Source: a virus
Lineage: Duplodnaviria > Heunggongvirae > Uroviricota > Caudoviricetes
Direction: 5' to 3' (one strand)
Length of the DNA stretch: 64,000 nt
IMG/VR virus record: IMGVR_UViG_3300027977_000006
Part shown: in pieces, positions 59,267 to 62,046 of the stretch
Numbering within the stretch: the stretch's first letter is position 1
Layout of the letters: each line of letters begins with the position of its first letter
Made by a program: the position numbers and the translations under genes
Notes under the pieces: model-generated
The model's input: the letters and a program-made list of their open reading frames with translations, nothing else
The model's database searches: none
What the model was told of the DNA's origin: nothing

Positions 59267-60928
59267 TTACCACCATGTACCACCACCTGCTAAACCTAAT
59301 GATTTAGCGTATCTTGGCAAACGGCAAGCCCAATACCCTGGGCTAGTTCTGTCTGTCTTTGAAGGACAGTTATGTCTATCTGAAAATGCTTTTCTAGCTT
59401 TAGGGTCTCTTAACTTAACAGCCAAGTTACCACCACCAGACTTAGCACCAAATGATACTTTTTTAATGTTACCAGATTGAGGGTCTCTTACATAAACATA
59501 GAATTTCTTTGAACCGCCTCTTTTAGGTTTACCTAATTGAACTTTTTTACCCTTATACTCAGCTTCATTAATAAGTTCGTAAGTTTTACCTATAGCAGCT
59601 GGACCAGTTTTTGATGTATCACCTACTTTAACATATGAAGGTGTTTTATCAGATGTTTTTGTAACTTTCATACTGATTGTTTTTGGTGTAACATCAATTA
59701 CTTCTAAAGTAGAATCAGAGTTTTTATGATATAATTTGTCACCAACTTTTACATTTTCAGCTTCATTTATTTCTTCTGTTTCAGCTTCTTCATAGATAAA
59801 GTTCATCTTAACCTTTTTACCTTCAAGCATGATATATTGATTATCAAATTCATTAACAATAAATGCATCATTTTCATTAAGTTTAATAAGCCCTTTTGAA
59901 TATAAAGACTTAACTTCTTTAATCAAATTAAAATATTTTTCTGAACCGACTCTATATATTGTTTCGTTCAAAGGAATTTCATTTTCAATATGGTATTTTA
60001 AATCATCAGAAACCATCATTTCTTTATGCAATTCCATTGGAGCTGACCATTCATCTTCCATTTCATATTGGTCATCAGAATCTACATGGTAATCATTTAA
60101 TCTACCTTCGATGAAATGATAAACTTCTTCAACATCATCAGCAGATGTGGCTATATGGTCCAAAGCCCATCCATGACCATCTGACAATAAAGCGTCAACT
60201 TCATCGTAATTCATTTTTAATAATTCACCAGCAGCGTGATGAATGGTTTTAAGATTTTGCCAAAACATGTAGTTATTTGACTCTTTTTGTATAGGATTGT
60301 GTGTATTTTGATATTCGGCCTCTTTACTACCTTCTGGTGCAAATATGCTTAATTTTTTAGGATTGTCAATAAACATGTTCTCTTCGATTTCTTCTTCACC
60401 GCCAAAATCTAAATCACTAGATGGTTCTTCAGCTGGTGCTTCCTCTGACGGAGCCTCAGTGTCTGCTGGTGCTTCTTCGTCACCAACACCTGATTTTTTA
60501 ACTTTGCTTATGATATCTTTTTGGTCTTCAGCGTCCATTTCACCTGTGTGAGTGGCTGACAATAATGAATTAATCGCAAATTTCTCTAATTCGAAATCTG
60601 GTTGACCTTGCTCTTCGTTATATTTTCTAAGGGATTGTCCTAACTTACCAGTTAGTTGTTGGATAAATTTCTTTGGGTCCGTTTCTTCATCGGCCTCAAC
60701 ACCAGCATCAAATGGCTCGTCATCAAATGGTTTATCATCTGTTGCTGGGGCTTCTAATGATGCGTCAGCAGGCGCTATGTCATCAACTGGCGCTGCTGGT
60801 TCTTCAGCAGTTGGCTCAGCCATAGGTTCTTCAATTGGAGTCTCAACAGCTGGCTCGCTAGGAGCTGCTATTTTTAACTTATATTTTGTTTCTTCGTCTA
60901 AATTAATTTTTAGACTTTTTTTTTTACT
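59267..60928 (-). CDS. Modular head protein; frame opens at 60928 and is probably fused to the upstream ORF by -1 frameshift
   Basis: Frame open 35 codons upstream of track ATG 60823; acidic Pro/Ala linkers; C-terminal KKFYVYV...RHNC...GYWACR module. Confidence 0.75.
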   Translation of the reverse strand, partial: SKKKSLKINLDEETKYKLKIAAPSEPAVETPIEEPMAEPTAEEPAAPVDDIAPADASLEAPATDDKPFDDEPFDAGVEADEETDPKKFIQQLTGKLGQSLRKYNEEQGQPDFELEKFAINSLLSATHTGEMDAEDQKDIISKVKKSGVGDEEAPADTEAPSEEAPAEEPSSDLDFGGEEEIEENMFIDNPKKLSIFAPEGSKEAEYQNTHNPIQKESNNYMFWQNLKTIHHAAGELLKMNYDEVDALLSDGHGWALDHIATSADDVEEVYHFIEGRLNDYHVDSDDQYEMEDEWSAPMELHKEMMVSDDLKYHIENEIPLNETIYRVGSEKYFNLIKEVKSLYSKGLIKLNENDAFIVNEFDNQYIMLEGKKVKMNFIYEEAETEEINEAENVKVGDKLYHKNSDSTLEVIDVTPKTISMKVTKTSDKTPSYVKVGDTSKTGPAAIGKTYELINEAEYKGKKVQLGKPKRGGSKKFYVYVRDPQSGNIKKVSFGAKSGGGNLAVKLRDPKARKAFSDRHNCPSKTDRTSPGYWACRLPRYAKSLGLAGGGTWW

Positions 60929-62046
60929 TCACCTTCAGCAATACTGTCAATTATTGAATCAAAATCTTTTAAAGCACTAAGAATTGAAAGCTTAGATTCT
61001 TTCACATCACCTTTTTTAGCACCAGCTATTTTATCAGCGTAAGTAATTTTGTTTTTAGGTTCAGCCAAAGCAGCAAATTTCTTTTCTTTTGCCGTCATTT
61101 CTTCACCTTCTTCCATACCTTTTTTACCAGCTCTTAATTTTTTAAAATCAGCAGCTGTTAGTTCACCTTTTGGTTCAGCTACGTCAAGTTTTTTCTGACT
61201 GCCTTTAAGTTCTTCTTTAGCAATCATTTCATCAATGGCCATTTCAGCCTCGGTCATTTCAACTTCCTCCATATACATTTCATCCATTGGTTTGTTACCT
61301 TCTAAGTTTCCTTCACCAGTAAATCCATTACCTTTCATTTCAGAAAACCCAGCAGCCATAGCCATTTCTGACAATAAATTATCATTCAAAAATACATTAA
61401 TTTCACCATCATAGTTGTATGCTTCAGCTAGACTTCTGAATTTAAGATTCAAATGTTTTATAGCTTTTGCATATGATGGATAAGCTTCTTGTTTTTTGTT
61501 TTGCAAACCACCAATATACTTAAAGTCTTCTGCTACCAAATTTTTGGTTTTACTAGCTTTTTTAATGTACCATTCATGGTTTTCTCTTATGATAGCATAA
61601 GCATTACCATCAGGTCCTATCTTGGTTAATTCAACAACAATGTTAGATTTGTTTTCATTAATTGATTGAATTCCCATCAATTGTTTCATTCTTTCGTTGA
61701 TTTCATTACCTTTAAGACCAACTGGGCTAATTATAGCTTTTTTCATAGGAAATATGTTTTCATTAATTTTATTTATTTGTTCTAAACTATCAGTATCAAC
61801 TTCATCAAATTCTAAATTAGTTCTTGGGTTACCAAAATAAGTTGCATTAATTGAATAAACATTACCATCTGGTGAATTAATTGACTCAAAAGAATATACC
61901 CATGGTTCATCATATGCCAACGGTTCTTCAATCAAATCACTTCTTTTAAATTCAACTGATACTCTTTCGCCTTCTACAATAGCATCAATGGTAAAACTTG
62001 TTTCAGTTATATTTTTAACTTTTAATATTTTAAAGTTGTTTAACAT
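60910..62046 (-). CDS. Head-region protein ending in slippery KKKV*
   Basis: 378 aa; late motif 16 nt upstream; ends GTA AAA AAA AAA GTC TAA. Confidence 0.8.
   Translation of the reverse strand: MLNNFKILKVKNITETSFTIDAIVEGERVSVEFKRSDLIEEPLAYDEPWVYSFESINSPDGNVYSINATYFGNPRTNLEFDEVDTDSLEQINKINENIFPMKKAIISPVGLKGNEINERMKQLMGIQSINENKSNIVVELTKIGPDGNAYAIIRENHEWYIKKASKTKNLVAEDFKYIGGLQNKKQEAYPSYAKAIKHLNLKFRSLAEAYNYDGEINVFLNDNLLSEMAMAAGFSEMKGNGFTGEGNLEGNKPMDEMYMEEVEMTEAEMAIDEMIAKEELKGSQKKLDVAEPKGELTAADFKKLRAGKKGMEEGEEMTAKEKKFAALAEPKNKITYADKIAGAKKGDVKESKLSILSALKDFDSIIDSIAEGEVKKKV

What the first reader, a model, noticed from the sequence alone, without database searches (positions are those of the whole stretch)
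60824..60931. -1 frameshift or transcriptional slippage on A10 fusing two head-module genes
Seen: the 378-aa ORF ends GTA AAA AAA AAA GTC TAA. The -1 frame is open from 60928 and reads SLKINLDEETKYKLKIAAPSEPAVETPIEEP into the 518-aa ORF, whose ATG has no A-rich leader or promoter. The fusion would be 926 aa. Known: A_AAA_AAA/G heptamers drive -1 shifts (dnaX), and phages use frameshifts for tail chaperones. Inference: a fixed ratio of short and long head proteins, in a head rather than tail context.
Basis: partly seen in the sequence, partly recalled or inferred. Interest (0 to 1): 0.72.

Follow-up and report, generated by a model that had tools for sequence, protein, structure and literature searches.

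The report
Conserved A10 slip site joining two phage genes
A run of ten A's at the end of a gene in an uncultivated T4-like freshwater giant phage is a conserved slip site, so the two adjacent reading frames should yield a 378-residue protein and a 926-residue fusion; the trick is a known kind, here in an uncharacterised gene family with over a thousand metagenomic members.

Summary
On the minus strand the 378-aa ORF (62046..60910) ends GTA AAA AAA AAA GTC TAA. The A10 lies at 60925..60916. The -1 frame opens at 60928 and runs into the 518-aa ORF, giving a 926-aa fusion.

It is neither an assembly error nor chance. In 90 related contigs (72 distinct junctions) the run is always A9-A11 (63 are A10). 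In 66 junctions the downstream frame is -1; in 6 it is already in frame and the run is still kept. The two frames overlap only at the run. The -1 peptide is conserved from the run onward, and its first ATG lies 14-125 codons downstream. Near-identical contigs never differ in run length. Elsewhere in these genes K-K-K is rarely written as nine A's.

I favour RNA-polymerase slippage (about 0.6) over a ribosomal -1 shift (about 0.3). The evidence is the conserved length of 9 or more, the varying phase, and the lack of a canonical stimulator. No RNA data cross the site, so this is not settled.

A hairpin selected at synonymous sites lies 24-44 nt downstream in about half of the junctions and is unexplained. 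The proteins' function is unknown; the head role rests on neighbourhood only.

The scan has already found this same family on other DNA (e1-5387126, e1-5408537, e1-5409067).

The parts
60910..62046 (-). Upstream ORF, 378 aa (short product). It has a conserved core of about 120 aa at residues 108-227, followed by mostly disordered acidic sequence, and ends ...EGEVKKKV.
   Evidence: There are 1102 homologs, and 119 of the best 120 end in KKK plus 1-5 residues. The AF2 model is confident only for a beta-beta-beta-alpha core at 135-215.
60916..60925 (-). A10 run, the slip site. Frame 0 reads GTA AAA AAA AAA GTC.
   Evidence: The run is A9-A11 in all 72 distinct junctions from 90 contigs.
60910..60912 (-). 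Frame-0 stop TAA, one codon after the run.
   Evidence: In relatives the frame-0 stop lies 1-24 nt after the run.
60929..60931 (-). TGA that closes the -1 frame just upstream of the run, so the two frames are both open only across the run.
60824..60928 (-). Bridge of 35 codons in the -1 frame. It has no start codon and carries the conserved motif S-L-x-x-[LIV]-x-E-E-T-K-Y-K-L-K followed by a Pro/Ala linker.
   Evidence: Substitutions between relatives pile up at codon position 3 of this frame (86/92/180).
59267..60823 (-). Downstream ORF, 518 aa as annotated from its first ATG; it is the C-terminal part of the 926-aa long product. It has a conserved three-helix domain (F-D-A-G-V-E-A ... D-P-K-K-F-I ...), then lineage-variable modules, and a C-terminal domain of about 90 aa (phrog_7595).
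60896..60915 (-). Small 7-bp hairpin starting at the first base after the run.
   Evidence: Across relatives it is weak and not universal (mean -2.3 kcal/mol; z -0.82 against synonymous recodings; starts at base 0 in 29 of 72).
60845..60872 (-). Inverted repeat or hairpin just after the K-Y-K-L-K codons, at the position of the element that is selected at synonymous sites in relatives.

Best explanation
The A10 is a programmed slip site kept by selection. Frame 0 gives the 378-aa protein ending KKKV. Transcripts, or ribosomes, that gain one position in the run read on as KKK-SLKINLDEETKYKLK... and make a 926-aa fusion of the same N-terminal part with the downstream ORF. I think the main route is transcriptional slippage. 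While the RNA:DNA hybrid (9-10 bp) is all A:T, the nascent RNA can realign, so part of the mRNAs carry A11 and are then translated normally. One gene pair would thus deliver a set ratio of a short protein and a long protein sharing an N-terminus, in the late structural block of a T4-like phage. Shown here: the anatomy, the conservation, the coding of the -1 frame from the run onward, and the stability of the DNA tract. Inferred: that slippage happens, that the polymerase does it, the ratio, and any role in the head.
For: (1) In 90 contigs and 72 distinct junctions the run is A9 (3), A10 (63) or A11 (6), and never shorter. 66 junctions need -1 and none needs +1.
(2) The overlap of the two open frames is confined to the run.
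(3) The -1 peptide is conserved from the run onward. The first ATG in that frame lies 14-125 codons later. Third-position substitutions dominate in that frame.
(4) Selection acts on nucleotides, not only on Lys-Lys-Lys. The codon before the run encodes V, L, S, P, I or Q but ends in A. Lys codons elsewhere in these genes are 83% AAA, yet only 4 of 56 other K-K-K triplets are nine A's.
(5) Six junctions are already in frame and still keep A10 or A11. One of them is seen in 5 independent contigs.
(6) All three phases of the run relative to frame 0 occur, so length is the constant feature, not the heptamer phase.
(7) A distant marine lineage with only A8 or less at the homologous spot is one unbroken ORF. 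Split genes always go with a run of 9 or more.
(8) No universal ribosomal stimulator was found. An SD-like tetramer occurs upstream in only 30 of 72 junctions. The hairpin next to the run is weak. The strong hairpin is 24-44 nt away.
(9) Literature. Efficient slippage by bacterial RNA polymerase occurs at runs of 9 A/T, matching the 9-10 bp hybrid; Thermus dnaX uses such a run (PMC5009743). tssM1 of Citrobacter uses A11 before a stop to make two length variants whose ratio matters (PMC4256274). Ribosome sliding was robust at A11 but slight at A9/A10 (PMC4363877).
(10) The DNA tract is stable: 0 of 34 near-identical pairs from distinct contigs differ in run length.
Against: There is no RNA or protein evidence; all support is comparative. 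A10 contains A_AAA_AAA heptamers in every phase, so a ribosomal -1 shift is possible at every junction. 59 of 72 junctions share one phase. A structure under synonymous-site selection does lie downstream, and downstream structures are typical of ribosomal frameshift sites, though the spacing here is not. The host, and the polymerase that transcribes these genes, are unknown. 'T4-like, hence host RNA polymerase' is an inference from head-gene homology. Both mechanisms may act together.
Confidence: 0.6

Rival explanations
1. A ribosomal -1 programmed frameshift (tandem slip of Lys-tRNA on A_AAA_AAA), or ribosome sliding on the A tract, is the main route to the long product. The mRNA keeps A10.
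For: An A_AAA_AAA heptamer in frame 0 is present at every junction. A small hairpin starts right after the run in 29 of 72 junctions, and a stronger hairpin under synonymous-site selection follows. An SD-like GAAGG or GAGGG lies about 10 nt upstream of the last heptamer in the window and in 30 of 72 junctions. E. coli dnaX and phage gpG/gpGT are precedents.
Against: A heptamer would suffice, yet no split junction has fewer than 9 A's. The tenth A is kept in codons for different amino acids. The strong hairpin sits 24-44 nt from the run and is anchored to the K-Y-K-L-K codons, not to the run. The SD-like element is missing in 42 of 72 junctions. The efficient bacterial motif A_AAA_AAG in frame 0 occurs in a single lineage (L043). 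Sliding was slight at A9/A10 in the E. coli system.
Confidence: 0.28
2. These are two independent genes. The KKK tail is a protein feature, the downstream ORF starts on its own, and no fusion is made.
For: In this window the downstream ORF has an ATG at 60823. Gene callers predict two proteins throughout the databases.
Against: In relatives the first ATG is 14-125 codons after the run and not at a conserved place. The peptide before it is conserved and evolves like coding sequence. The -1 frame opens exactly at the run in every lineage. Natural single-ORF fusions exist. K-K-K elsewhere avoids nine A's.
Confidence: 0.05
3. DNA-level phase variation: the tract length flips between A10 and A11 in the phage population and switches the long form on and off.
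For: Homopolymer tracts are classic contingency loci. Both split and in-frame arrangements exist among lineages.
Against: 0 of 34 pairs of distinct contigs with 93% or more identical flanks differ in run length. The in-frame variants differ from split ones by substitutions and other indels, not by run length alone. The exact 378-aa protein, stop included, is on 10 contigs.
Confidence: 0.03
4. It is an assembly or sequencing error in a homopolymer, or a recent pseudogene.
For: Homopolymers are error-prone on some platforms.
Against: The same arrangement occurs in 66 distinct junctions from many samples and assemblers. The exact protein is on 10 contigs, and the phage is held by runs from 19 studies. 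One contig of another run crosses the site without an indel.
Confidence: 0.02

Closest known systems
Citrobacter rodentium tssM1 and Yersinia pseudotuberculosis tssM3 (Gueguen et al. 2014, PMC4256274)
   Same: A poly-A run (A11) lies just before a premature stop. Extra A's added by RNA polymerase restore the frame. Two length variants share an N-terminus, and both are needed in a set ratio.
   Different: That is a bacterial secretion-system gene and the mechanism is shown experimentally. It was reported in two bacterial species, whereas this site is kept across a large family. Here the gene is a phage late gene of unknown function, nothing is shown at the RNA level, and the run is mostly A10.
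Thermus thermophilus dnaX tau/gamma (Larsen et al. 2000, as reviewed in PMC5009743)
   Same: A conserved homopolymer run of 9 gives a mixed mRNA population and two products with a common N-terminus.
   Different: In dnaX the slipped transcripts give the shorter product; here in most lineages they give the longer one. The protein family is unrelated.
E. coli dnaX and phage lambda gpG/gpGT -1 ribosomal frameshifts
   Same: A -1 relation of the frames, a Lys-codon slippery site, and a fixed ratio of short and extended protein in a phage structural module.
   Different: Those use a heptamer with stimulators at defined spacing (an SD-like element and a stem-loop 5-9 nt away). Here the conserved feature is a run of 9-11, and no stimulator at canonical spacing is conserved.
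Head-protein frameshifts: T7 gene 10A/10B and Lactobacillus phage A2 major head protein (cited in PMC10885494; from my own knowledge for T7)
   Same: Recoding in a head context gives a C-terminally extended minor form.
   Different: Those extend the major capsid protein itself by a ribosomal -1 shift. Here the gene is not the capsid protein and adds 549 residues with their own domains.
Earlier findings of this scan in the same family on other genomes (e1-5387126 followed up; e1-5408537, e1-5409067)
   Same: The same gene family and the same A9/A10 junction in other giant aquatic phages.
   Different: This report adds the family-wide census, the in-frame variants that keep the run, the avoidance of A9 elsewhere, the downstream hairpin and the DNA-tract stability test.

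Membership tests
Programmed transcriptional slippage sites (Tth dnaX, tssM1, Shigella mxiE/spa13 type) | Homopolymeric A/T run about as long as the RNA:DNA hybrid (9 or more) | tested here: met
   A10 in the window. A9-A11 in 72 of 72 distinct junctions, never shorter in a split gene.
Programmed transcriptional slippage sites (Tth dnaX, tssM1, Shigella mxiE/spa13 type) | Two frames that overlap only at the run, with the arrangement conserved among relatives | tested here: met
Programmed transcriptional slippage sites (Tth dnaX, tssM1, Shigella mxiE/spa13 type) | Transcripts with non-templated extra A's while the DNA has one length | tested here: inconclusive
   The DNA length is stable. The RNA runs offered are stored as contigs and none crosses the site.
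Programmed transcriptional slippage sites (Tth dnaX, tssM1, Shigella mxiE/spa13 type) | Both protein products made | not testable with these tools
   No proteomics and no cultured phage of this family.
-1 programmed ribosomal frameshift sites (E. coli dnaX, lambda G/GT, IS3 type) | X_XXY_YYZ heptamer in frame 0 | tested here: met
   A_AAA_AAA is present at all junctions.
-1 programmed ribosomal frameshift sites (E. coli dnaX, lambda G/GT, IS3 type) | Conserved stimulatory structure 5-9 nt downstream of the heptamer | tested here: not met
   The hairpin adjacent to the run is weak and present in a minority. The selected hairpin starts 24-44 nt after the run at variable distance.
-1 programmed ribosomal frameshift sites (E. 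coli dnaX, lambda G/GT, IS3 type) | Upstream SD-like stimulator (dnaX type) | tested here: not met
   Present in the window and in 30 of 72 junctions, absent in 42.
Phase-variable contingency locus | Tract-length polymorphism among otherwise near-identical genomes | tested here: not met
   0 of 34 near-identical pairs from distinct contigs differ.
T4-type prohead-protease substrates or internal head proteins | Encoded in the head module of a phage with a gp21-like protease | tested here: met
   The same strand block holds TerL, portal, a gp21-like protease (phrog_207) and a gp23-like major head protein. The gene itself lies five genes upstream of TerL.
T4-type prohead-protease substrates or internal head proteins | [L/I]-x-E cleavage motifs at conserved places, and presence in virions | tested here: inconclusive
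   A [LIV]-x-E motif lies between the run and K-Y-K-L-K in all 72 junctions as I read the printed peptides: 51 were counted with L or I, and the rest show V or M by eye, not counted by script (background 1.7% per position). Conserved I-N-E, I-N-E and L-S-E motifs flank the upstream core. Neither cleavage nor virion presence can be tested here.

The most novel reading that the evidence does not exclude
The slip site may be the gate of a cargo-loading device for the phage head. The short form would be a prohead core component. The slipped long form would carry lineage-variable C-terminal modules into the prohead on the same N-terminal handle. The conserved [LIV]-x-E motif placed right after the run would let the gp21-like prohead protease cut the cargo free. 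The conserved hairpin downstream would tune expression of the poorly translated distal part, for example by shielding the C-rich linker from Rho or nucleases. Polymerase slippage would then set cargo stoichiometry per capsid.
Probability: 0.15. Interest if true: 0.75.

Novelty: new member of a known kind. Interest (0 to 1): 0.5.

Why it matters
Gene callers split this locus into two 'hypothetical proteins' and start the second at whatever ATG comes first, in over a thousand metagenomic homologs. The real products are probably a short protein and a fusion two to three times longer.

The family gives an unusually clean comparative data set for asking what marks polymerase slippage as opposed to ribosomal frameshifting. 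Run length is conserved at 9-11. The phase is free. The run is kept even where the frames are already joined. Such runs are avoided elsewhere in the same genes.

It adds to signs that large aquatic phages use poly-A slip sites routinely in late genes. It also points to an experimentally tractable question: what sets the ratio, and what the downstream hairpin does.

Tried and rejected
RNA evidence. Two run searches listed only Logan contigs. I laid two metatranscriptome runs and two 'RNA-Seq' runs that are probably DNA. No RNA contig covers the run, so nothing can be said on expression or on A11 transcripts. One probably-DNA contig of X19 crosses the site with no indel.

Whole genome.

Function.
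- Pfam gave nothing for either ORF or for ten downstream ORFs of relatives.
- PHROGs matched only the C-terminal domain, to a family of unknown function.
- The ESM Atlas gave no usable hit.
- AF2 models: the upstream protein is mostly disordered (mean pLDDT 51). The downstream part has confident domains.
- Fold searches gave only generic matches: best Z 5.3 and 7.1, the latter to three-helix bundles. The BFVD matches are uncharacterised phage proteins.

Cultured phages. tblastn of the upstream protein, and of a distant relative, found none. DNA search found only one short 70% match.

RNA structure.
- Rfam gave no meaningful hit.
- RNAalifold on a MAFFT alignment of the hairpin region predicted nothing, because the stems are not in register.
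- I did not build a covariance model. Two registers of the inner stem coexist, so column-wise covariation statistics would be unreliable.
- Folding the sense against the antisense strand does not tell RNA from DNA. The antisense folds better, as expected for a G/U-rich strand.

Upstream hairpin of the Roseiflexus IS630 type: the 60 nt before the run have mean z -0.53, so this was rejected.

Literature. Four searches found no paper on this family or on A10 sites in such phages.
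Full report
**1. What is in the sequence**

The genes are on the minus strand. ORF 62046..60910 (378 aa) ends GTA AAA AAA AAA GTC TAA. The ten A's occupy 60925..60916 and the stop occupies 60912..60910. In the -1 frame a TGA (60931..60929) lies directly before the run. From 60928 that frame is open and reads SKKKSLKINLDEETKYKLKIAAPSEPAVETPIEEP, then the ATG at 60823 of the 518-aa ORF 60823..59267. A shift within the run, or an mRNA with eleven A's, gives 377 + 31 + 518 = 926 aa.

The window is 31% G+C and holds only five A/T runs of 9 or more, against about 16 expected from a first-order Markov model. 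Four of them sit in A-rich intergenic leaders, for example just upstream of the major head protein start. Only this one lies in coding DNA.

**2. Context**

The window is part of a large phage. The exact 378-aa protein is on a contig of 300,480 bp. The phage occurs in lake and other freshwater metagenomes from 19 studies.

On the same strand, downstream of the pair, lie:
- five ORFs without annotation;
- a T4-type large terminase (52701..54479);
- a portal with an HNH-containing insert (49053..52409);
- a gp21-like prohead protease (46355..47113);
- a gp23-like major head protein (43119..45014).

Thymidylate synthase lies upstream. 'Head module' is therefore a fair description of the neighbourhood, but nothing ties the two proteins themselves to the head.

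**3. Is it an error?**

No. The upstream protein has 1102 homologs in the metagenomic protein collection. Of the best 120, 119 end in KKK plus one to five residues, mostly KKKV.

I fetched related loci from IMG/VR with the protein and with a profile of its conserved core, and the DNA of long single-ORF relatives. This gave 90 loci from distinct contigs and 72 distinct 300-nt junction contexts.

| Run length | Distinct junctions |
|---|---|
| A9 | 3 |
| A10 | 63 |
| A11 | 6 |

- The run is never shorter than 9.
- In 66 junctions the downstream conserved domain is in the -1 frame relative to the upstream core. In none is it +1. In 6 it is in frame.
- In every case the upstream frame is open up to the run and the downstream frame is open from it. 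The stretch where both are open is the run plus a few codons.
- Among 34 pairs of distinct contigs whose flanks are at least 93% identical, none differs in run length. This argues against both assembly noise and DNA-level phase variation.

**4. The -1 frame is coding from the run onward**

The peptide after the run is conserved: (S/T)-L-x-x-[LIV]-x-E-(E)-T-K-Y-K-L-K-[LIV], followed by a Pro/Ala-rich linker and a very conserved domain (F-D-A-G-V-E-A ... D-P-K-K-F-I ... G-K-L-G-Q-S-L-R).

The first ATG in this frame lies 14 to 125 codons after the run, at no conserved place. In 43 ungapped pairs of relatives, differences in the first 20 codons after the run fall 86, 92 and 180 times on codon positions 1, 2 and 3 of this frame. 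An independent start for the downstream ORF cannot explain this.

**5. Selection is on the nucleotides of the run**

- The tenth A comes from the third position of the preceding codon. That codon encodes V, L, S, P, I or Q in different lineages but ends in A.
- Outside the junction, Lys is AAA in 83% of cases. Yet of 56 other K-K-K triplets in the same genes only 4 are AAA AAA AAA, where about 57% would be expected.
- Nine A's are thus avoided wherever they are not wanted and invariably kept at the junction.

**6. In-frame relatives**

Six junctions have the two halves in one ORF and still carry the run:
- L020 (A11);
- L021 (A10);
- a marine lineage with A10, found identically in five independently assembled contigs including a TARA scaffold (L022-L025);
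- a sister lineage with A11 (L098-L100).

In these lineages any slip leads to a stop within a few codons, so the same two kinds of product are expected with the default reversed.

A more distant marine lineage was first met on a contig of a Prochlorococcus single-cell assembly. It has one unbroken ORF with only A8, or no run at all, at the homologous K-K-V-I-K-V-D-A-P-A-P junction. So the fusion is a real, functional protein. The long run is not required by the protein. A split gene always goes with a run of 9 or more.

**7. Which mechanism?**

Both a ribosomal -1 shift and polymerase slippage fit the frame relation. I favour the polymerase for these reasons.

(a) The conserved quantity is length (9-11, mode 10). 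This matches the 9-10 bp RNA:DNA hybrid and the threshold of 9 A/T for efficient slippage by bacterial RNA polymerase (review PMC5009743). A ribosomal shift needs only seven.

(b) All three phases of the run relative to frame 0 occur.

(c) The motif best for ribosomal shifting in bacteria, A_AAA_AAG in frame 0, appears in one lineage only.

(d) No stimulator at canonical spacing is conserved. An SD-like tetramer upstream is present in 30 of 72 junctions. The hairpin that starts right after the run is weak (mean -2.3 kcal/mol, z -0.82 against synonymous recodings). The region before the run is unstructured.

(e) The closest documented case is an A11 just before the stop of tssM1. It was shown by mass measurement to give transcripts with 10-15 A's and two length variants whose ratio matters (PMC4256274).

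(f) Ribosome sliding on poly-A was robust at A11 but slight at A9/A10 in the E. coli system (PMC4363877).

Against this, there are no RNA data. A10 always contains usable heptamers. 59 of 72 junctions share one phase, which common descent also explains. A selected structure does lie downstream. I put slippage by the polymerase at about 0.6, a mainly ribosomal route at about 0.3, and everything else together at about 0.1. That a recoding event of some kind is programmed here I hold at about 0.9.

**8. An unexplained conserved hairpin**

Codons 6-33 after the run fold much better than synonymous recodings drawn from each gene's own codon usage. The mean is -20.6 against -14.8 kcal/mol, with mean z -2.09 and 57% of junctions below -2. 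A control stretch (codons 61-88) gives z -0.31.

In about half of the junctions the strongest hairpin starts 24-44 nt after the run, on the A-A-G-U-U-G-A-A-G-C-U of the K-L-K-L codons. Its G+C-rich inner stem differs between lineages by compensatory changes: AGCCGC/GCGGCU against AGACGC/GCGUCU, GCUGG/CCAGC against GCAGG/CCUGC, and GGGGC stems with different outer pairs. In the window its counterpart is 60872..60845.

The distance from the run varies with the number of intervening codons, so it is not a classical frameshift stimulator. It is not followed by a U tract. Because it lies downstream of the run, it cannot act on slippage at the run through the nascent RNA. Strand comparison is uninformative. 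Possible roles are shielding the C-rich, poorly translated linker from Rho or nucleases, or pacing ribosomes. These are guesses.

**9. What the proteins are**

Unknown.

The upstream protein has a small conserved core. The model is confident only for a beta-beta-beta-alpha unit at 135-215, and the rest is predicted disordered. It has no fold match above Z 5.3. Many relatives carry an EF-hand/dockerin-like loop (D-x-N-K-N-G-K-L-D-x-D-D-F) that is degenerate in the window's copy, and a Cys-containing insert that the window lacks.

The downstream part has, in order:
- a disordered Pro/Ala linker;
- a conserved three-helix domain;
- an acidic linker;
- modules that differ between lineages, so that downstream ORFs range from 230 to 930 aa;
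- in this phage, a C-terminal domain of about 90 aa (phrog_7595). This domain occurs as a small free-standing protein in Pelagibacter, Methylophilales and Flavobacterium phages and as an appendage on other phage proteins.

A [LIV]-x-E motif lies between the run and K-Y-K-L-K in all 72 junctions as I read the printed peptides. The script counted 51 with L or I; the rest show V or M and were judged by eye (background 1.7% per position). Conserved I-N-E, I-N-E and L-S-E motifs flank the upstream core. From my own knowledge of T4, its gp21 prohead protease cuts after [L/I]-x-E, and the phage encodes a gp21-like protease. This suggests, without showing, that both forms are prohead-protease substrates and that the long form carries cargo that is cut free. 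I give this reading 0.15.

**10. Known or new**

Programmed slippage on poly-A runs that yields two length variants is well known (Thermus dnaX, tssM1, Shigella type III genes). So are recoded head proteins (T7 10A/10B, phage A2). Four literature searches found no description of this family or of A10 sites in such phages. No cultured phage carries it.

This scan has met the same family before on other genomes (e1-5387126 followed up; e1-5408537 and e1-5409067). It has also met many A9-A11 sites in other genes of large aquatic phages. I therefore file it as a new member of a known kind.

Noticed in passing
L108:4386-4394 and the same place in L109, L110, L113, L114, L115: In the distant marine lineage whose gene is one ORF, a second run (TTTTT then A9, reading F-L-K-K-N) is conserved inside the ORF in 6 of 7 loci. 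Adding one A gives K-K-K-H-stop. It may be another slip site that makes a truncated form.
   Followed up: partly
window 45025-45034 (minus strand), 7611-7620, 11994-12002, 30927-30936: The other long A/T runs of the window lie in A-rich intergenic leaders. One example is AATA-A10-TA-A7-CT just before the ATG of the major head protein. This looks like SD-less, A-rich translation starts, as in Bacteroidota hosts.
   Followed up: partly
L107 / L108 (Prochlorococcus sp. AG-409-L21 contig QCKH01000009.1, 63,985 bp): A single-cell Prochlorococcus assembly carries a 64-kb phage-like contig with a distant homolog of the family. The same contig is in IMG/VR. This may be a host lead for the marine branch.
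   Followed up: no
window 59267-59560 (C-terminal about 90 aa of the 518-aa ORF): The domain phrog_7595 (G-K-P-x-R-G-G-S-K-K-F-Y-V-Y-V ... R-H-N-C ... Y-W-A-C) is widespread. It is a small stand-alone protein in Pelagibacter, Methylophilales, Roseobacter and Flavobacterium phages and a Nitrosopumilaceae virus. In BFVD it is also fused to XkdF-like and ChaB-like proteins.
   Followed up: partly
relatives P0016, P0047, P0057, P0122 (alignment A1 columns 320-365); P0124: Many homologs of the upstream protein carry an insert with conserved Cys (N-P-W-A-I-C-T-A-S-V-G-R-E-D-K ... C-V) and an EF-hand/dockerin-like calcium loop (Pfam PF00404 on P0124). The window's copy lacks the insert and has a degenerate loop. 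It has an extra N-terminal domain of 100 aa instead.
   Followed up: no
window 57099-58859 and 58801-59253 (minus strand): The next two ORFs downstream overlap by 59 nt. The 586-aa one matches only PHROGs of unknown function.
   Followed up: no
same genome, about 8.6 kb beyond the window end (note e1-1840863): An ABC-ATPase/GNAT gene is said to be interrupted at a T9 run. If conserved, it would be a second slip site in this genome. I could not reach it because no whole genome is held.
   Followed up: no
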